A stretch of 64,000 nt of DNA from an uncultured archaeon. Lineage in GTDB: Archaea; Thermoproteota; Nitrososphaeria; Nitrososphaerales; Gagatemarchaeaceae. Position numbers and translations under genes: made by a program. The stretch is taken from contig CAWCYD010000003.1 in the NCBI GenBank assembly GCA_963799775.1, forward strand, positions 352,001-416,000, written 5' to 3'. Shown piece after piece: positions 53,733-59,765 of the stretch (its first letter is position 1; every line of letters begins with the position of its first letter). The notes under the pieces are model-generated. The model was not told the origin of the DNA, did no database searches, and saw nothing but the letters and a program-made list of their open reading frames with translations.

Positions 53733-54820
53733 ATGCGGTCGGTTTTACGGCTCGTCGCATCTGCGCTGAAATAGGTCAGGATCATTTCTATTCACGAAGA
53801 CCTCCGGCAAAGACTTGGCGCAGATCGTAGGACTCTGGCTGGCAGAAGGCGATCACAAGACATTACGTGAGGTCACCTTCACCAACAATGACTCGAAACT
53901 CATAACCTTCTTTCACCACGTTCTTTGGGAGCACTTTACGCCACGTAACCCGCCAAGAGTCTACGTCTACCGACCGTCCAAGGATGCAACCTTCGACCGT
54001 CCGGTAATGGGCGCAGTTTACAGGTATTACATTGACCGACGGGCCAATGTGCCGTATTACATCTACAGAGTCTCTGGAGTTGAATTAGCGAGAATCTTGA
54101 GAAGAACCTCGCAGACGATATGCGCTGATTCGTCCAATTATCGGGGAATACTTCAGGGGTTCTTTGCCGGAGAAGGCAATATCAAGGAAACCATTGCTCA
54201 TTATTCGAGAGTGCTTAGAATCGCTCAAGGTAAGAGACTCGCTATTCTTGAGCGGATCTTGCGCTTTTTGAGTGTGAAGTTCAGCTACAAGCTGTCAGAA
54301 AGCTCCTACGTAATTTCGGGTCGAGACAACTTGGAAAAGCTATGGAGCATCGGCGTAAGCGAACTGCATTCGAAGAAGCACGCAAAATTTGCTGCTATGA
54401 TGTCCTCGTACCAACAATATCATTATCGACGAGGCTATCTCAGTGCTCGAATATTAGAGATCCTTTCGTTGCCCTTGACTACTCGCCAAATTGCCACCCG
54501 AGTGAATCGGGGTAAATCAAGGGTAAATCATCTATTGACTGCGCTCTGCCGGAAAGGCGAAGTCGAAATGTTCAAGGTTAGAAGCTCATATTATTGGGTA
54601 AGGAGCGACCAACAATGCGTAATAATCTCTAAGGAGAAGTCCACGATTCTAGAAGCGCTCTCCTGTCCTCGGCGACTATCGGAGATCGCCAAGGGCCGTC
54701 AACCGCACCGAGAAGTCAGTTTCCCATAGACTTGCAGAGTTGAACAGGCTCGGTCTTGTCATGAAAGCAAACTCTAATTGGCGAGCAATCGAGGTATCGA
54801 AGCGGGTGATTGTCAAATAA
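53733..54820 (+). CDS. free-standing double-motif LAGLIDADG endonuclease with two C-terminal wHTH domains (frameshift ~54692; start 53733 or 53815)
   Basis: IVGLWLAEGD and ILQGFFAGEGN motifs, FTNND block; LTTRQIATRVNRGKSRVNHLL and RRLSEIAKAVNRTEKSVSHRL after correction; AT-richer than flanks. Confidence 0.85.
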
Positions 54821-55496
54821 CGCTCATCGGTGGGGTCGATGAGGCCGGGAGAGAGCACGACGAAAAGTCGTCTCCCCGCGAGGCTGCGTACTCGGCCCGC
54901 TCGCGGTCGCAGGCGTCTCAATAGAATCATCTAGGCTGCAGGAACTCTCTGAGCTGGGGGTCAAGGACTCGAAGCTCCTCTCACCCAGCCAGCGGGACTC
55001 CCTCTACCCGGAGATCAAGAGAATCTGCAAGGGCGTCGAAGTCTCCTGCATCCCCCCGAAGATGATCGACCGATACGTCAGCAGGGGCAAGAAGTACAGG
55101 CGCCTCAACTACCTCGAGACCATCCACATGGCGAAGGTCATCGACGCGCTCTGCGTCGACGAGGTATTCGTCGACGCTCCGGACGTCAACCCGCCGAGGT
55201 TCACGATGGAGCTCGCCGAGCTGCTCACCACGACCCCACGGATAGTCGCCGAGCACAAGGCGGACGTCAACTACGCGGTCGTCTCCGCCGCCTCGATAAT
55301 CGCGAAGGTGGAGAGGGACCTCGAGGTCGCTGCGCTCAGGGAGATCCACGGCGACTTCGGCTCAGGCTACCCCTCGGACCCTGACACGATAGCCTTCCTG
55401 GAATCATGGGTGAAGAGGCAGAGCTCGCAGCCCGAGTTCGCCCGCAAGAGCTGGAAGACGTGGGAGAGGATAGTCCCGCTCCCCACCCTCGACTAG
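54817..55496 (+). CDS. rnhB: ribonuclease HII, interrupted by a 29-nt candidate intron (exons 54817-54851, 54881-55496)
   Basis: TLIGGVDEAGR|GCVLGPLAVAG, VKDSKLL, VDA, EHKAD, VSAASIIAKV.RD, GSGYPSD. Confidence 0.93.
54852..54880 (+). other. 29-nt bulge-helix-bulge intron in rnhB mRNA
   Basis: Central helix CGGG/CCCG, bulges AGA and CGA, intron stem GAG(C)ACGAC/GTCGTCTC; removal gives GCC GGG AGA GGC. Confidence 0.85.
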
Positions 55497-56170
55497 TCAG
55501 CTCAGAAGCGCCGAGATCAGCGCGTGGTCCTTGTCGAACGGATGGAGGTCGACCACGCGCTCGACGACGAAACCAGCGTCCCTCAGCTTCTGGGCCTCTT
55601 CCTTGAAGACCAGCGAGGGCTCCTTCAGCTGGTCTATGCTCCTCGCTTTGACGATGAGCAGGATCCTGCCGCCCTTTCTGAGATGCCTCTTCGCGTTCGT
55701 TATCGCGATCTCGGTCTGGTCCCTCTGCGCGATGTCGCAGTAGAGCACGTCCATCTTCCCGAAGCCACCGAAGCTCCCGGTCTCCCTTGCGTCAGAGATG
55801 AAGGGTATGACATTGGGCCTCGCCTTCGCCACCTTCTCGATGAACTCTCTGCCCACGCGGGCGGAGAGCTCCACCCCAACAACCATCCCGCCCTCGCCGA
55901 CGATGTCCGAGACGTGCGAGATTGTCGTGCCCGTCGAGGCACCGAGATATACGGCACCTTGTCCCCGATGCTTATGACATCGGGAGAGACCGCGCCCTTG
56001 AGTATGCCCCCCGCGAGCTTGCTGCGGTAGGGGTCCCATGCCCTGTACTCGCTGCCGTGTATCTTGACGAGGTCTTCGTCATACGCCGTGCGGCCTGGGA
56101 CGAGATTTCTTGTGAAAACCTTTCTCCTTCCCGGCTCCCGGCCTTCCATAACGAGGACGTTGCTTGCCAT
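55497..56170 (-). CDS. flpA: fibrillarin rRNA/tRNA 2'-O-methyltransferase, frameshift ~55950
   Basis: EYRAWDPYRSKL, YLGASTGTTISHVSD, DIAQRDQ, KARSID. Confidence 0.93.
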
Positions 56171-57315
56171 CGCGCCGGAACTCTCTTCGTTGTTCGGGTC
56201 GGGGCGCGGGTGGTTCCTTATACTTTATCCTGATTTCATTTAGTCTCTTCTCCAACAGGCCCGTGAGCTCCCCCGCCTTCTCTCCCCTGAAGTAGTCGAT
56301 CCTCGCTGCGATGGCAATCTTGTTCGCCAACGTGCGCGCGATCTTCCCTCTCTGCCATTTGGGCGCCGTGTGGACCGCCTCGTGCTGGAAGAGTATCCCG
56401 TGCTTCGGAGGCCTGGAGCCTGTCCTTATCGCCCTGAAGAGCGCCTTCTCAGCCCCCAGGACCTGGATCGTGCTGGCCGGAAGCCTGGCCATGCGCTCCA
56501 GCCCTCCCGCCCTGGCGATCAGCCTCGCCCCTATCGTCGCCCCCGCGACCGCGGTGACGTTGGGGGCGATCTTGTTCATCGTAGACTCCACCGTCTCGGC
56601 GAGCCTCTCCCTCTCCGCTGCTGTCTTGACCGCGAGCTCGGCCAGACCGACGATGCGGCGCATGTCCTTGTCTGAGATGCTGCCCCCCTTCGAGCGCTCG
56701 GCAGCGAGCACGATCGCCTCGGCCTTCTTGTCGCCGAACCCTTGCTTCTCGAGGGTCTCCTTGTCGAAGGTGCCCCGCTTTCCGATGTCTATGATCAGCT
56801 TGGCCAGCGCCAAGTTGTCTTTCAGGATGTCTTGAAGCTCAGGGAAATGCAGGCTGTACCACTCCATGGTCCTCTCGGTCGTGATGTTGAGGAACCGGTC
56901 CAGCTCGTCGAGGGCCTGTATCGCGTTGACGAGATGTATGGTCCTCTTTGGAGGAGGCCTCGCTCACCTCCTTCTCCGCCGCGGCTATGGCCCGCGCGCG
57001 AGTGCTCTCAAACGCGCTCTTGGCGTCGGACGCCAGACCCGCCTTTGCAATGATTTCGAACTTCCGCGAGTCCAGCTCGTCGCGCTCGTCGTCCGTTATA
57101 ATCGAGGTCTCGATCCCGAACTCTTCCATCTTCTCCTTCGCGGGCAGGCTCGACACCTTCAGCCGCCCGATGCCCTTCTTCTTGACCCCCTCCGCCACCC
57201 TGCGCAGGTAATCCTCTGCTCCGCCCTCCTTGCCCGACTTTTCCGAGAGGATGATGTCGTCGCCCTGCACGACCACGAAGCCGGCTTCGGTCTCGTAGAG
57301 GATGGGCTCGGCCAA
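56079..57315 (-). CDS. nop5: C/D box RNP protein Nop5/Nop56, frameshift ~56941
   Basis: EWYSLHFPEL, APN, PASTIQVLGAEKALF, PKHG, RGKIAR. Confidence 0.93.
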
Positions 57316-57403
57316 GAAAAATTCGATTGATGCACCCTCAGGGCACGGATAAAGGTTGTCGCCAATGCGCATTGCTGCTTATTAGCGGAACCCACTTCTC
57401 CAG

Positions 57404-57986
57404 ATGTTGGAGTACCGCTGCGAGTACTGCGGGGCAGTCTTCGCGGGAAAGAGGCAAGTTATCGGTCACAAGGTAGGCAAACACATCAAAGTAACCTCGT
57501 TTGCAGAACGCGAAGATCAAGCTCGATGGGTTGACTGAACGTCAGATAGGATACATCGCGGCTTTCTTGGACGGCGAAGGCGGCATTCAAATCACTAGGA
57601 CGACAAGAAAGGACAGGGAATACACCATAGCCCTCCATCCTTGCGTCTACTTTACCAACACGAATCGCGAAGTAATCGAGACGTTGAGGAGGTGGTTCTC
57701 CGCAGGATGTGTCGTGACCGCCAAGGCAAACAAGGAAGGCCACAAGCCAACCCATGTCCTTCACATCACAGGGACGAGGAACATCGTCTCCCTCCTTACA
57801 GTCGTCAGGCCATGCCTCATAGTCAAAGCGAAACAGGCCGACACCATGTTACAATTTTGCAAGAGCCGCCTCACTCACAACGCCGGAAAGGACCGAAGAT
57901 ATACCGAAGAGGAATTATCATTATATATGACTCTCAAAGCACTGAACGAGAGAGGTGTAAAGAAACGCCAACACACGGAAGTCTAA
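57404..57986 (+). CDS. free-standing single-motif LAGLIDADG endonuclease with N-terminal C2H2 zinc finger (1-nt frameshift ~57500)
   Basis: MLEYRCEYCGAVFAGKRQVIGHKVGKH, then YIAAFLDGEGGIQI...FTNTN...PCLIVKAKQA; TATA-like CTTATTA ~25 nt before ATG. Confidence 0.85.
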
Positions 57987-58148
57987 CGAAGGCGGGGAAA
58001 TGCCAAATGGCACCCTTTAGTCCGCGGTCAGACCCCCAAGATAGAAGGCAAACCGCACAAGGGTAAGATCCCCAAAGTGAGGAACACCCGGACCTTCGTC
58101 AAGAGATTCACACTAAAGAGAAAGCCCGGACAGAATTGGAGACTTTAG
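57965..58148 (+). CDS. rps30e: 30S ribosomal protein S30e, interrupted by a 19-nt candidate intron (exons 57965-57999, 58019-58148)
   Basis: Spliced product (M)[53 protein letters not shown]; absent from the ORF track. Confidence 0.92.
58000..58018 (+). other. 19-nt bulge-helix-bulge intron in rps30e mRNA
   Basis: Exon stem GGC/GTC, central helix GGGG/CCCT, bulges AAA and TTA, intron stem TGCC/GGCA; removal gives GGG AAA GTC. Confidence 0.85.
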
Positions 58149-59765
58149 ACTCCGATTCTTTCTCGGACGGAGAGGCCGCGGCTACAGAGTGGCTAGTCGC
58201 CTCTATCCTCTCCGGCGAGATCTCTTCCCGCCAGCAACTGGAGAGAGCAAAGAAAGTCGCCGCCCGGGATTTTCACCTCGGCCGCTTTCTTACCAACTCC
58301 GAGATTTACCTCGCCCTCGAGCCCAACGATCGCGAGGGAAGGAAGGAGCTGTTCCGGGTCCATCCTCGCCGGAGCGCCTCCGGAATAGTCATCGTGACCG
58401 TCTTCACGGCGCCAGCAAACTGCCCTCACGGGACGTGCACCTACTGCCCGGGCGGGCCGAGCGTCGGCACACCACAGAGCTACGTGCCCGACGGTCCCAG
58501 CATGCGCGGGGCCCGGAGCGTCGGCTTCGACCCCTATCTGCAGGCGCAGAAGATGCTGAAGAAGTACCTCGACAGAGGACATGAGGCGTCAAAGGTCGAG
58601 CTGATGGTCGAGGGAGTGCACCTTCCTCGCCATGCCGAGAGAATACCAGGAGTGGTTCCTCAAGCGGGCCTTCGACGGCCTGAACTGCGCCCCGTCTCCG
58701 TCTCCTTCCCTAGAGCAGGCGCACTCGACGAACGAGTCCGCAGACTATAGGTCCGTTGGATTGACGATCGAGACCAAGCCCGACTGGTGCAGACCTGAGC
58801 ACGTGGACATGCTCCTCTCATATGGGGTGACCAAGGTGGAGATAGGGGTCCAAGCGCTTCGAGACGAGATCCTGACAAGGAGCAACCGCGGCCACGGCGT
58901 CCAGGACACGCTCGATGCGTTCCAGGTGGCGAGGGACGCCGGCCTGAAGGTCACTGCCCACATGATGCCTGGCCTTCCGGGCTCGAACCCCGAGGACGAC
59001 CTAGCCGACCTGCTCAGGCTCTTCGAGGACGACGCCTTGCGCCCGGACATGATGAAGCTCTATCCTACCACGGTCGTGAAGGGGACGGCCCTCGCGAGGA
59101 TGTGCGAGGCGGGCCGGTACACGCCCTATGACCTTGAGACGGTGGTGAACCTGATCGCGGAGATGAAAGTCCACGTCCCCGCCTGGCACCGGATAATGAG
59201 GATCCAGAGAGAGATACCAGAGGCTGACATAGCGGCGGGAAGCAAGGCTGGCAACCTCCGGGAGATGGTCTTGGCCAAGCTGCGGGCAGACGGGCACACA
59301 TGCGGTTGCATCAGGTGCAGGGAGGTGGCGATGGACTCGCCTTCAGACCTAGACGAGGCGTCGCAGGGCGAGCTGGTCATCCGGAACCAGAGCTACCGCG
59401 CCTCAGGGGGGACGGAAGTCTTCTGCACGTACGAGTTCAGCAACTCCAGGAAACTGGCTGGTTTCATCCGCATGCGGGCTCCCTCGGCCGAGGCACACAG
59501 GCCCGAGATGGCAGACCATCAAGTGTGCATAGTCCGCGAGCTCAAGGTCTACGGGCGCGTCGTCTCGGTCGGATCCAGGGACGCTGCTGCCTTCCAGCAC
59601 CGAGGGCTCGGTCACTCGCTGCTCGAGGAGATGGAAGAGGAGGCGAGGCGAAGCTTCGACGCCCGCAGGTTGCTCGTGATGAGCGCCGTTGGAACCAGGA
59701 ACTACTACAGGAAGTTCGGGTACGAGAGGTCGGGGCCTTACATGGCAAAGGCGCTCGCGTCCTAA
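58136..59765 (+). CDS. elp3: tRNA U34 carboxymethylation radical-SAM/GNAT enzyme Elp3, frameshift ~58617
   Basis: CPHGTCTYCPGG, ETKPD, HMMPGLPG, RIQREIP, VRELKVYG, QHRGLG. Confidence 0.93.

What the first reader, a model, noticed from the sequence alone, without database searches (positions are those of the whole stretch)
53733..58148. Repeated module: free-standing LAGLIDADG endonuclease + BHB micro-intron in the 5' end of the adjacent conserved gene (rnhB, rps30e)
Seen: twice within 4.5 kb, an AT-richer LAGLIDADG gene lies directly upstream of a conserved gene and overlaps its start (4 nt for rnhB, 22 nt for rps30e). Each host gene carries a tiny frame-breaking insertion in its most conserved motif that folds as a canonical bulge-helix-bulge. 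Both begin exactly 35 nt after the presumed start (codon 12, phase 2). The two endonucleases have different architectures and the two insertions share no obvious sequence, so these look like independent events converging on one design. Established: archaeal tRNA splicing endonuclease EndA cuts BHB motifs. Homing endonucleases normally sit inside archaeal rRNA introns or inteins, and cbf5 is the classic spliced archaeal mRNA. Collaborative homing between a free-standing endonuclease and an ORF-less intron is known from phage. Inference: the endonuclease cuts the intron-less allele at the conserved motif, the micro-intron destroys the site and gives self-immunity at no protein cost, and the pair spreads by co-conversion. 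I do not know of this being described for archaeal mRNAs, but cannot check the literature here.
Basis: partly seen in the sequence, partly recalled or inferred. Interest (0 to 1): 0.95.

Follow-up and report, generated by a model that had tools for sequence, protein, structure and literature searches.

The report
Homing endonuclease genes paired with micro-introns
Two essential archaeal genes are each interrupted by a tiny intron of the tRNA-splicing type and sit right behind a selfish DNA-cutting enzyme gene, a pairing that recurs across many archaeal phyla and probably lets the enzyme spread without cutting its own genome.

Summary
In rnhB a 29-nt insert (54852-54880) and in rps30e a 19-nt insert (58000-58018) fold as bulge-helix-bulge (BHB) motifs. 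Their standard cut sites restore exactly DEAGR|GCVLGP and [11 protein letters not shown]. Each gene lies directly behind an AT-richer LAGLIDADG gene.

- Among 37 assessable relatives, the rnhB intron and LAGLI-A occur together in 8 and apart in none.
- The rps30e intron occurs in 9 of 35 relatives, 7 of them with ZnF-LAGLI-B. LAGLI-B never occurs without the intron in that set.
- A second rps30e intron (31 nt) in other relatives is paired with a different, PD-(D/E)XK-like gene.
- Of 80 LAGLI-A family loci from many archaeal phyla, 78 have rnhB immediately downstream. Of these, 65 carry a 21-73-nt BHB insert at the same codon, with strong exon-intron covariation.

- The presumed start codons are ATA and ACG, not ATG.
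- The rnhB BHB has only a 1-bp outer helix.
- The cassette was inserted inside rnhB and left a 5' remnant.
- Other frame breaks nearby are 1-2-nt assembly errors.

Still unproven are splicing in RNA and the cleavage specificity of the endonucleases. Nine apparently intact LAGLI-A genes sit at intronless rnhB. My paper searches found no description of this arrangement.

The parts
53733..53745 (+). Decayed remnant of the original rnhB 5' end (ATG plus a few codons), left upstream of the inserted cassette
   Evidence: Filled alleles of relatives keep ATG-CTT-GTC-GGC-GGC-GTG-GAC (G019) or a 19-nt version (G017) at this position. These match the 5' end of intronless rnhB alleles (G011, G018, G008). 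The copies in G000 and G016 are decayed.
53815..54820 (+). LAGLI-A: free-standing double-motif LAGLIDADG endonuclease gene with two C-terminal wHTH domains. The window copy has a 1-nt frame break near 54694-54700.
   Evidence: The family alignment A4 has both catalytic-position Glu-Gly pairs invariant in 25 of 25 sequences. GC is 0.482.
54805..54810 (+). Shine-Dalgarno-like GGTGAT, 6 nt upstream of the ATA at the rnhB start position
   Evidence: Read. GCGGGTGAT(T/C)GTCAAATAA is conserved in all 7 filled alleles shown. Its function is inferred.
54817..54851 (+). rnhB exon 1 (35 nt; ATA at the start position, overlapping the LAGLI-A TAA stop as ATAA)
54852..54880 (+). 29-nt BHB micro-intron in rnhB, after the 2nd base of the Arg codon of DEAGR|G
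54881..55496 (+). rnhB exon 2 (RNase HII)
   Evidence: PF01351, E 4.9e-41. It is the single copy in the genome.
57404..57986 (+). ZnF-LAGLI-B: C2H2 zinc finger fused to a single-motif LAGLIDADG endonuclease. The frame break near 57493 is an assembly error.
   Evidence: The ORF is fused and in frame in G006, G011 and G007. A short-read contig lacks 1 nt at 57493. GC is 0.506.
57952..57957 (+). Shine-Dalgarno-like GAGGTG, 7 nt upstream of the ACG at the rps30e start position
   Evidence: Read. AGGTG lies 7-10 nt before ACG also in relatives that lack both LAGLI-B and the intron.
57965..57999 (+). rps30e exon 1 (35 nt; ACG at the start position)
58000..58018 (+). 19-nt BHB micro-intron A in rps30e, after the 2nd base of the Lys codon of TKAGK|V
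   Evidence: 98.9% of cells paired, 4 pairs with changes on both sides, 0 of 500 shuffles as high.
58019..58148 (+). rps30e exon 2 (ribosomal protein S30e)
   Evidence: PF04758, E 0.001, below cut-off for this 42-aa piece. One search finds it conserved in 36 of 41 relatives.

Best explanation
Each module is a composite mobile element. It consists of a free-standing homing endonuclease gene inserted at the 5' end of a conserved host gene, plus an ORF-less BHB micro-intron a few codons into that gene.

Step 1 (well supported): the micro-introns are removed from the mRNA by the host tRNA-splicing endonuclease and joined by RtcB. This restores the catalytic DEAGRG motif of RNase HII and the TKAGKV motif of S30e.

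Step 2 (inferred): the endonuclease recognises the uninterrupted, highly conserved DNA that codes for that motif in intron-less alleles.

Step 3 (inferred): the intron splits the site in the carrier genome, so the carrier is immune at no protein cost.

Step 4 (supported by distribution): break repair copies the endonuclease gene, the new exon 1 and the intron together into empty alleles. After the endonuclease gene decays, the intron stays behind as a resistant allele.

The host gene is translated from a near-cognate start (ATA or ACG) behind a Shine-Dalgarno-like motif. For rnhB this start is coupled to the endonuclease's stop codon (ATAA here, ATGA or GTGA in other phyla).
For: Splicing:
- Standard BHB cut positions (after the 2nd bulge base) restore the frame exactly in both genes.
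- Covariation for intron A: 9 sequences, 98.9% of cells paired, 4 pairs changed on both sides, 0 of 500 shuffles as high.
- Covariation for intron B: 6 sequences, 98.7% paired, 4 such pairs, 0 of 500.
- Across 65 rnhB introns, the 4-bp central helix is fully paired in 59, against at most 4 of 65 in slid registers. There are 19 different exon tetramers, each matched by the intron's 3' end.
- The genome holds two tRNA_int_endo genes and RtcB.
- rnhB and rps30e are single-copy.

Linkage:
- rnhB intron and LAGLI-A occur together in 8 of 37 assessable relatives and apart in 0.
- Intron A occurs in 9 of 35 relatives, 7 with LAGLI-B. None of the 26 other loci has LAGLI-B.
- Intron B occurs in 6 of 35, 4 with HEG-C. 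None of the other 29 has HEG-C.
- Class-wide, 3 of 4 further close LAGLI-B homologues and 2 of 2 further HEG-C homologues sit upstream of rps30e carrying the matching intron.

Selfish character:
- GC is 0.48 to 0.51 against about 0.61 in neighbours.
- Decayed copies retain the intron (G016, G020, G417).
- The filled state needs at least 4 changes on the rnhB tree, 2 of them forced by well-supported branches.
- A remnant of the old rnhB 5' end lies upstream of the cassette.
- Both catalytic-position Glu-Gly pairs are invariant in 25 of 25 family members.

Generality:
- 78 of 80 LAGLI-A family loci from many phyla have rnhB directly downstream, and 65 of those 78 carry the insert at the same codon.

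Weak hint of co-conversion:
- In the first 60 nt of exon 2, G000 is 90% and 83% identical to filled alleles, against 73% and 70% to closely related empty ones. That difference is gone from nt 180 onward.
Against: - There is no RNA evidence of splicing. No RNA run was listed, and the one DNA run laid did not cover the introns.
- There are no cleavage data for any of the three nucleases.
- Eleven of 76 resolved LAGLI-A loci have an intronless rnhB. In 9 of those 11 the LAGLI-A ORF is full length with both motifs. The intron is therefore not needed for coexistence everywhere. Those alleles encode DDSGRG, DDAGRG or DEAGKG, or use a CGT Arg codon, which may or may not change a target site.
- The remnant ends 11-14 nt upstream of the intron site, not at it.
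- The intron and the endonuclease gene are only about 35 nt apart, so co-occurrence could be plain linkage.
- Related genomes are not independent counts.
- The rnhB covariation within the genus alone is not significant (142 of 500 shuffles as high).
- The rnhB outer helix is 1 bp in 50 of 65 loci.
- The starts are non-canonical and untested.
- Only 44 of 65 intron-bearing loci passed my strict test for an intact LAGLI-A. Part of that shortfall may come from assembly errors or from my motif patterns.
Confidence: 0.62

Rival explanations
1. Hitch-hiking intron. The endonucleases are selfish homing enzymes, but their target is elsewhere, for example the point where the cassette was inserted (rnhB codon 7, or the rps30e 5' leader). 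The micro-intron neither blocks cleavage nor helps homing. It is only dragged along because it lies within the co-conversion tract.
For: The rnhB remnant ends 11-14 nt upstream of the intron site. Nine intact LAGLI-A genes sit at intronless rnhB. Introns exist without endonuclease genes (G021, G024, G008).
Against: Three unrelated nuclease families, and perhaps a fourth at a tRNA gene, are each tied to their own micro-intron within 20-35 nt of the host gene's start. LAGLI-A keeps the same intron site in 65 of 76 resolved loci across phyla, although the intron sequences are unrelated. Within the relatives set, no endonuclease gene occurs without its intron.
Confidence: 0.15
2. Domesticated partner. 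The LAGLIDADG-wHTH protein is no longer a homing enzyme. It is a regulator or splicing helper (maturase-like) for rnhB, kept in an operon with it.
For: Synteny is strictly conserved, with rnhB directly downstream in 78 of 80 loci. The stop and start overlap as ATGA, GTGA or ATAA in 43 of 76 loci. There are two wHTH domains. The protein is also present at intronless rnhB.
Against: It was found in only 8 of 20 assessable genomes of the genus. Copies are decayed or truncated in several genomes. GC is low. An insertion scar is present. The catalytic-position residues are invariant. The unrelated LAGLI-B and HEG-C show the same pattern at another gene.
Confidence: 0.12
3. Independent features. The micro-introns serve the host, for example by holding back translation of rnhB and rps30e until the mRNA is processed. 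The endonuclease genes merely land in tolerant spots next to conserved genes.
For: Both introns lie within 35 nt of the start, where a BHB structure could hinder initiation. rps30e carries two different introns in some genomes.
Against: Presence and absence of intron and nuclease gene are tightly coupled. Twenty-nine of 37 assessable relatives do without the rnhB intron, and 22 of 35 have no intron in rps30e.
Confidence: 0.08
4. Artefact or pseudogenes. The inserts are assembly errors, or the two genes are dead.
For: The assembly does contain 1-2-nt indel errors. These break fibrillarin, Nop5, Elp3, LAGLI-A and ZnF/LAGLI-B, and two of them are corrected by short-read contigs.
Against: The inserts are 19 and 29 nt long and recur in independent assemblies. 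They keep a BHB geometry with compensatory changes. The exons remain open, conserved and single-copy.
Confidence: 0.02

Closest known systems
cbf5 pre-mRNA BHB intron of Crenarchaeota (Watanabe 2002; Yokobori 2009, PMC2738675: search listing and start of abstract seen)
   Same: A BHB intron inside an archaeal protein-coding gene, presumably cut by the tRNA-splicing endonuclease. It shows gain and loss among relatives.
   Different: The host genes differ (rnhB, rps30e). The introns are very small (19-31 nt here, 21-73 nt family-wide). They lie within the first 12 codons and are tightly linked to an adjacent free-standing endonuclease gene. That cbf5 has no such linkage is my recollection and was not tested. 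A 2020 paper states that cbf5 was then the only reported example besides the HVO_1309 5' UTR (PMC7714728, passage seen).
Collaborative homing in T-even-type phages: a free-standing endonuclease plus an ORF-less or defunct group I intron (term and mobE/I-TevIII case in PMC2790892: listing and start of abstract seen; details recalled)
   Same: The endonuclease gene lies outside the intron. The intron is proposed to interrupt the enzyme's target. Both are inherited together.
   Different: The intron here is a BHB intron cut by a host protein enzyme, not a self-splicing group I intron. The hosts are cellular archaea. The nucleases are LAGLIDADG or PD-(D/E)XK-like. The cassette also supplies a new exon 1 and a new start for the host gene. 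Cleavage and immunity are untested here.
LAGLIDADG homing endonucleases encoded inside archaeal rRNA BHB introns (closest solved structure by sequence for LAGLI-B: 3e54, E 8e-5)
   Same: The same enzyme family and the same intron type, in an archaeal host.
   Different: The ORF is not inside the intron. It lies upstream of exon 1, and the intron is ORF-less and tiny. The target is a protein-coding gene. LAGLI-A carries two wHTH domains and LAGLI-B carries a C2H2 zinc finger.
BHB intron in the 5' UTR of Haloferax HVO_1309 mRNA (PMC7714728, passages seen)
   Same: An mRNA substrate of the archaeal splicing endonuclease.
   Different: That intron is in an untranslated leader and does not break a reading frame. 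No endonuclease gene partner was mentioned in the passages I saw.

Membership tests
Archaeal BHB intron (substrate of the tRNA-splicing endonuclease) | Two 3-nt bulges on opposite strands, separated by a 4-bp helix | tested here: met
   Across the rnhB family, the central helix is fully paired in 59 of 65 loci and 3 of 4 paired in the other 6, against at most 4 of 65 in slid registers.
Archaeal BHB intron (substrate of the tRNA-splicing endonuclease) | Flanking helices on both sides (strict hBHBh') | tested here: inconclusive
   rps30e intron A has a 3-bp outer and a 4-bp inner helix, so the feature is met. The rnhB intron and rps30e intron B have an outer helix of only 1 bp (50 of 65 rnhB loci). 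That is a relaxed motif. By the abstract of PMC5829648, only (alpha-beta)2 and epsilon2 enzymes cut non-canonical introns.
Archaeal BHB intron (substrate of the tRNA-splicing endonuclease) | Cuts after the 2nd bulge base give a functional product | tested here: met
   the frame is restored to DEAGR|GCVLGP and [11 protein letters not shown]; the same holds for 65 of 78 rnhB loci. The position of the cut within the bulge is recalled knowledge.
Archaeal BHB intron (substrate of the tRNA-splicing endonuclease) | Splicing machinery present in the genome | tested here: met
   Two separate PF01974 genes, consistent with a two-subunit enzyme, though the subunit type was not tested. RtcB scores 1.2e-172.
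Archaeal BHB intron (substrate of the tRNA-splicing endonuclease) | Spliced RNA observed | not testable with these tools
   No RNA run holds the stretch.
LAGLIDADG homing endonuclease | LAGLIDADG motif(s) with a conserved acidic residue | tested here: met
   LAGLI-B: Pfam 23.8 bits against a 22.5 cut-off, and PDB 3e54 and I-MsoI. LAGLI-A: the window copy is below cut-off (18.4 bits), but the family alignment has both Glu-Gly pairs invariant and relatives carry PF14528.
LAGLIDADG homing endonuclease | Presence/absence polymorphism at one conserved site (mobility) | tested here: met
LAGLIDADG homing endonuclease | Site-specific cleavage of the empty allele | not testable with these tools
   This needs protein expression and a cleavage assay.
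Collaborative homing (free-standing endonuclease plus ORF-less intron) | The endonuclease gene lies outside but next to an ORF-less intron, and both are inherited together | tested here: met
Collaborative homing (free-standing endonuclease plus ORF-less intron) | The intron interrupts the enzyme's recognition site and protects the carrier | not testable with these tools
   This is inference only. Counter-observation: 9 intact LAGLI-A genes sit at intronless rnhB.
Collaborative homing (free-standing endonuclease plus ORF-less intron) | The intron is a self-splicing group I intron, as in the phage cases | tested here: not met
   The inserts are 19-31 nt with BHB geometry. They are too small for a ribozyme. 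I did not run an Rfam search.
PD-(D/E)XK nuclease (for HEG-C of relatives) | Restriction-endonuclease-like fold with a D...E-x-K-type motif | tested here: inconclusive
   The model has pLDDT 80.7. The best PDB matches are archaeal Hjc, the R2 endonuclease domain, EndA and Bax1, at E only 0.02-0.07. P-D...E-V-E..K is invariant in 30 of 30 sequences. There is no Pfam or PDB sequence hit.

The most novel reading that the evidence does not exclude
Free-standing homing endonuclease genes paired with ORF-less BHB micro-introns form a general, pan-archaeal class of composite mobile element. Such elements would create and spread introns in protein-coding genes, and perhaps in tRNA genes. Many short archaeal BHB introns would then be immunity scars or homing partners of endonucleases, rather than relics or anti-virus devices. 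The rnhB element alone spans Nitrososphaeria, DPANN lineages, Thermoplasmata and others. This genome also shows the same pairing at tRNA-Ala(GGC) and tRNA-Cys(GCA).
Probability: 0.35. Interest if true: 0.95.

Novelty: new variant of a known kind. Interest (0 to 1): 0.9.

Why it matters
Only one intron within an archaeal protein-coding sequence (cbf5) was on record in the papers I could search. Here there are three more intron sites in two genes. One of them, in rnhB, recurs in 65 loci from many phyla.

The tight pairing with free-standing endonuclease genes offers a concrete, testable origin and spreading mechanism for archaeal BHB introns, which is an old open question. It also extends collaborative homing from phage group I introns to a protein-spliced intron type in cellular organisms.

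Practical consequences:
- Gene callers will mis-annotate these rnhB and rps30e genes as broken or truncated.
- The LAGLIDADG-wHTH family is a large natural panel of enzymes that probably target one conserved site.
- The conserved ATA, ACG and CTG codons at start positions suggest near-cognate initiation in these archaea.

Tried and rejected
1. Other frame breaks as micro-introns. The breaks in fibrillarin (~55952-55955), Nop5 (~56850), Elp3 (~58612), LAGLI-A (~54694-54700) and ZnF/LAGLI-B (~57493) are 1-2-nt indels. Short-read contigs identical to the window lack the extra bases at 55952, 55955 and 57493. They are assembly errors, not introns.

2. A large BHB intron holding the whole endonuclease gene, with the upstream ATG (53733 or 57404) as exon 1. 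I rejected this by inspecting. The rnhB remnant is decayed in G000 and G016 and not recognisable in G009 and G014. It also lacks the bases needed to pair with an intron 3' end. No fold was run for this idea.

3. The upstream in-frame TTG (54778) as the rnhB start. This is possible in G000. But G014 has an in-frame TGA after it, and G009 differs in frame. The block GGTGAT, 6 nt, ATA is what is conserved.

4. Genome-wide census of BHB-interrupted ORFs. The first scan gave 15,246 raw hits and missed rnhB. The relaxed scan with ORF filters gave 6,817 candidates from 48,114 hits and missed both known introns. I abandoned it, so no statement on genome-wide frequency is possible.

5. Other free-standing LAGLIDADG genes of G000. 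I read the nucleotide sequence only for the one at C3:209328. The DUF354-like gene behind it has a 1-nt indel, not an intron. The others were only listed as ORFs.

6. RNA evidence. No RNA holder was listed. The one DNA run laid (share 0.07) did not cover either intron.

8. Sequence searches of LAGLI-A and HEG-C against PDB gave no meaningful hit. Pfam and PHROGs gave only zinc-finger-type hints for HEG-C.

9. tblastn with HEG-C against G000 found nothing.

10. aragorn could not resolve the tRNA-Ala genes of most relatives, so co-occurrence of the tRNA-Ala intron and its LAGLIDADG gene is untested beyond G000, G015 and G024.

11. Literature searches found no rnhB or rps30e intron and no archaeal collaborative homing. 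Supplements were not consulted. Subscription journals are largely outside the library.

Full report
**What is in the window.** The stretch 53.7-58.2 kb reads, on the + strand:
- the end of an NTPase-like gene;
- LAGLI-A (53815-54820);
- rnhB (54817-55496);
- on the - strand, fibrillarin and Nop5;
- back on the + strand, ZnF-LAGLI-B (57404-57986), rps30e (57965-58148) and Elp3.

rnhB and rps30e are each broken by a short insert. Removing 54852-54880 (29 nt) gives ...GGVDEAGR|GCVLGPLAVAGV... Removing 58000-58018 (19 nt) gives ...[20 protein letters not shown].... Exon 2 of rnhB scores 4.9e-41 against Pfam RNase_HII. Each gene is found once in the genome.

**The two endonuclease genes.** Both are AT-richer than their neighbours, at GC 0.48 and 0.51 against 0.60-0.63.
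- LAGLI-A has two LAGLIDADG motifs and two wHTH domains.
- LAGLI-B has one motif behind a C2H2 zinc finger. Its best match among solved structures is an archaeal rRNA-intron-encoded endonuclease (3e54, E 8e-5).

**Quality of the assembly.** The 2.47-Mb, 3-contig assembly carries small indel errors. Five genes within 6 kb are broken by 1-2-nt indels. One public DNA run holds short contigs identical to the window that lack the extra bases at 55952, 55955 and 57493. So those breaks, including the one between the zinc finger and LAGLI-B, are errors. The 19- and 29-nt inserts are of a different kind and recur in other assemblies, as shown below.

**Are the inserts BHB introns?**
- rps30e folds into a textbook motif: a 3-bp outer helix GGC/GUC, the 4-bp helix GGGG/CCCU, bulges AAA and UUA, and the inner hairpin UGCC/GGCA. 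Cutting after the second base of each bulge removes exactly the 19 nt. The cut position within the bulge is recalled knowledge.
- rnhB has the central helix CGGG/CCCG, bulges AGA and CGA, and a long inner hairpin. Its outer helix is a single pair, so it is a relaxed motif.
- Single-sequence energies are unremarkable (z -0.5 to -1.5).
- The evidence comes from comparison. For intron A, 9 sequences give 98.9% paired cells and 4 pairs changed on both sides, with 0 of 500 shuffles as high.
- The genus-level rnhB alignment is nearly invariant and therefore uninformative (142 of 500). The wider family settles the question, as described below.
- The genome has two tRNA-intron-endonuclease genes and RtcB. 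Two separate subunit genes fit the hetero-oligomeric enzyme type. By the abstract of PMC5829648 that type accepts non-canonical introns. The subunit type was not tested.

**Relatives: rnhB.** I searched 41 genomes (23 of the same genus counting G000, 2 more of the family, 16 of other families of the order). The 5' end of rnhB could be read in 37.
- Eight genomes, all of the genus, carry the 29-nt insert. All eight also carry LAGLI-A directly upstream. It is a single unbroken tblastn match in G006, and also in G019 apart from an early stop. It has frame breaks in G000, G017, G009 and G014, and it is truncated or internally deleted in G020 and G016.
- None of the 29 intronless loci has LAGLI-A in the fetched flank.
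- On an rnhB protein tree of 26 rows, the filled state needs at least 4 changes, 2 of them forced by well-supported branches. Partial genes of G006, G021, G022 and others were left out of that tree.
- Filled alleles keep a remnant of the original rnhB start upstream of LAGLI-A. In G019 it is ATG-CTT-GTC-GGC-GGC-GTG-GAC. It is decayed in G000, at 53733.

The cassette (LAGLI-A, a new exon 1 and the intron) was therefore inserted into rnhB at about codon 7, just 5' of the DEAGRG codons. The new exon 1 has ATA at the start position. It overlaps the LAGLI-A stop as ATAA, with GGTGAT 6 nt upstream, and this block is conserved in all 7 filled alleles shown.

**Relatives: rps30e.** The 5' end could be read in 35 genomes.
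- Intron A is present in 9. Seven of these have ZnF-LAGLI-B upstream, as one fused ORF in G006, G011 and G007. G021 and G024 have the intron without LAGLI-B.
- G024 is of another genus. Its 20-nt version has compensating changes in both the central and the inner helix.
- LAGLI-B is found in none of the other 26 loci.

Unexpectedly, a second micro-intron, B, is present in 6 genomes. It is 31 nt and is cut at ...GGGAGTC|A...AG|TCAC..., within the Leu codon (codon 7). It shows 98.7% paired cells and 4 pairs changed on both sides, with 0 of 500 shuffles as high.
- Four of these genomes have, directly upstream of rps30e, a 207-226-aa ORF of a different kind, which I call HEG-C.
- HEG-C has a zinc ribbon, a basic helical region and a C-terminal domain with an invariant P-D...E-V-E..K.
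- Its model (pLDDT 80.7) matches PD-(D/E)XK nucleases best, with archaeal Hjc on top, but only at E 0.02.
- G021 and G024 carry both introns.

The rnhB and rps30e modules are distributed independently. G011 has only the rps30e module, and G017 has the rnhB module together with intron B and HEG-C.

In samples of 401 genomes of the class (400 plus G000):
- Four further close LAGLI-B homologues all lie directly upstream of rps30e. Three have intron A. The fourth, G104, is a pseudogene with two stops next to an intronless gene.
- Two further HEG-C homologues both lie upstream of rps30e with intron B.

**The rnhB module is pan-archaeal.** LAGLI-A has 396 relatives at E <= 0.001 in the protein collection. 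In an alignment of 25 diverse members, both LAGLIDADG motifs, including the Glu-Gly at the catalytic position, are invariant.

A scan of one genome per prokaryotic species found 91 relatives, of which 80 loci were kept. Their titles name Thaumarchaeota/Nitrososphaeria, Woese-, Pace-, Micr- and Aenigmatarchaeota, Nanohaloarchaea, Altiarchaeota, Thermoplasmata and others. Some of these records probably belong to the same species as my G handles.
- In 78 of the 80 loci, rnhB follows immediately. The other two end at the contig edge.
- A script that looked for the join restoring D-E-x-G-R/K-G-x-x-x-G-P found an insert of 21-73 nt in 65 loci, no insert in 11, and no solution in 2.
- In 54 of the 65, the insert comes after the 14th base counted from the Asp codon. 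That is the same place as in the window.
- The intron sequences are unrelated between phyla. Even so, the 4-bp central helix is fully paired in 59 of 65 and 3 of 4 paired in the other 6, against at most 4 of 65 in registers slid by 1-3 bases. Nineteen different exon tetramers are each matched by the intron's 3' end. This is strong covariation for the BHB.
- The outer helix is 1 bp in 50 of 65.
- The script chose the best-pairing join among those that restore the motif, so a small selection bias exists.

**What argues against a simple immunity story.** In 9 of the 11 intronless loci, LAGLI-A is a full-length ORF with both motifs. These rnhB alleles encode DDSGRG, DDAGRG or DEAGKG, or use CGT for Arg. 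Whether that alters a target site is unknown. The rnhB remnant ends 11-14 nt before the intron site. No enzyme or RNA data exist. Linkage over 35 nt would by itself give co-occurrence.

**Mechanism.**
- Shown or strongly supported: the inserts are conserved BHB elements whose removal restores essential motifs. They travel with adjacent endonuclease genes that behave as mobile, decaying, AT-rich insertions. Introns outlive the endonuclease genes.
- Inferred: the endonucleases cut the uninterrupted motif-coding DNA. The intron protects the carrier. Repair copies the whole cassette.
- A weak hint of co-conversion: in the first 60 nt of exon 2, G000 is 90% and 83% identical to filled alleles, but 73% and 70% to closely related empty ones. 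That difference vanishes downstream.
- The equal 35-nt offset in the two genes follows from both proteins having 11 residues before the split codon. Twenty-seven of the 76 resolved rnhB loci have the same spacing between the LAGLI-A stop and the Asp codon as a 35-nt exon 1 implies, if rnhB starts in the overlapping A/G-TGA. I see no evidence that the number itself matters. A BHB this close to the start might hold back translation until splicing, but that is speculation.

**Comparison with what is known.** In the library searched, the only intron reported within an archaeal protein-coding sequence is cbf5, plus a 5'-UTR intron in Haloferax (PMC7714728, passages seen; PMC2738675, listing and start of abstract). 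Collaborative homing is described for phage group I introns (PMC2790892, listing and start of abstract; details recalled). Searches combining RNase HII or rnhB, BHB, LAGLIDADG, free-standing and DPANN found nothing relevant. Subscription journals and supplements were not covered. I therefore rate this as a new variant of a known kind. It works like collaborative homing, but with a protein-spliced intron in cellular archaea, and it adds three intron sites in two archaeal protein-coding genes.

**Verdict.** Interest is high.

Noticed in passing
window 55497-56170 (fibrillarin), 56079-57372 (Nop5), 58136-59765 (Elp3), ~54694-54700, ~57493: Housekeeping genes are broken by 1-2-nt indels about once per kb. 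Short-read contigs of one public run lack the extra bases at 55952, 55955 and 57493. The assembly therefore carries long-read-type indel errors, and gene calls here need frame-aware handling.
   Followed up: yes
window 57965-57967 and 54817-54819; L031-L060; L144, L146: The rps30e start position holds ACG in 14 of 20 genomes of the genus, including 7 that lack both the endonuclease gene and the intron and have a TATA-like box upstream. It holds CTG in two genomes of another family. An AGGTG-like motif lies 7-10 nt upstream. rnhB behind LAGLI-A has ATA in the Thaumarchaeota-type loci (ATAA or ATAG overlap), against ATGA or GTGA in other phyla. This suggests near-cognate initiation.
   Followed up: partly
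G000:C3:1424631-1425149 (L169, L171); G015 (L173, L185); G024 (L172, L195): tRNA-Ala(GGC) with a 13-nt anticodon-loop intron is followed 66 nt later by a 121-aa single-motif LAGLIDADG ORF. The same pair occurs in G015 and G024. Three other-family genomes have an intronless tRNA-Ala(GGC) without it. This may be a tRNA version of the same endonuclease-plus-micro-intron design.
   Followed up: partly
G000:C3:751803-752600 (L170): tRNA-Cys(GCA), with a 24-nt intron called by aragorn, lies next to a frameshifted double-motif LAGLIDADG gene on the opposite strand.
   Followed up: no
relatives: L031:1738-2415(-), L040:759-1406(+), L041:1758-2378(-); P0121-P0175: HEG-C is a family of 55 proteins of about 210 aa with no Pfam domain. 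It has a zinc ribbon and a probable PD-(D/E)XK domain. In all 6 genomes examined it lies directly upstream of rps30e carrying intron B. It is a candidate new homing endonuclease family.
   Followed up: partly
G000 whole genome: There are 21 LAGLIDADG_3 matches. About a dozen lie in open frames of 480-1477 aa and are likely inteins. Several lie in small frames, for example C3:209328 upstream of a DUF354-like gene, C3:814839 and C3:545222.
   Followed up: partly
L041 (G021), L051 (G024), L153 (G417): In these genomes rps30e carries both micro-introns, A and B, within its first 12 codons, about 16 nt apart in the mature mRNA.
   Followed up: yes
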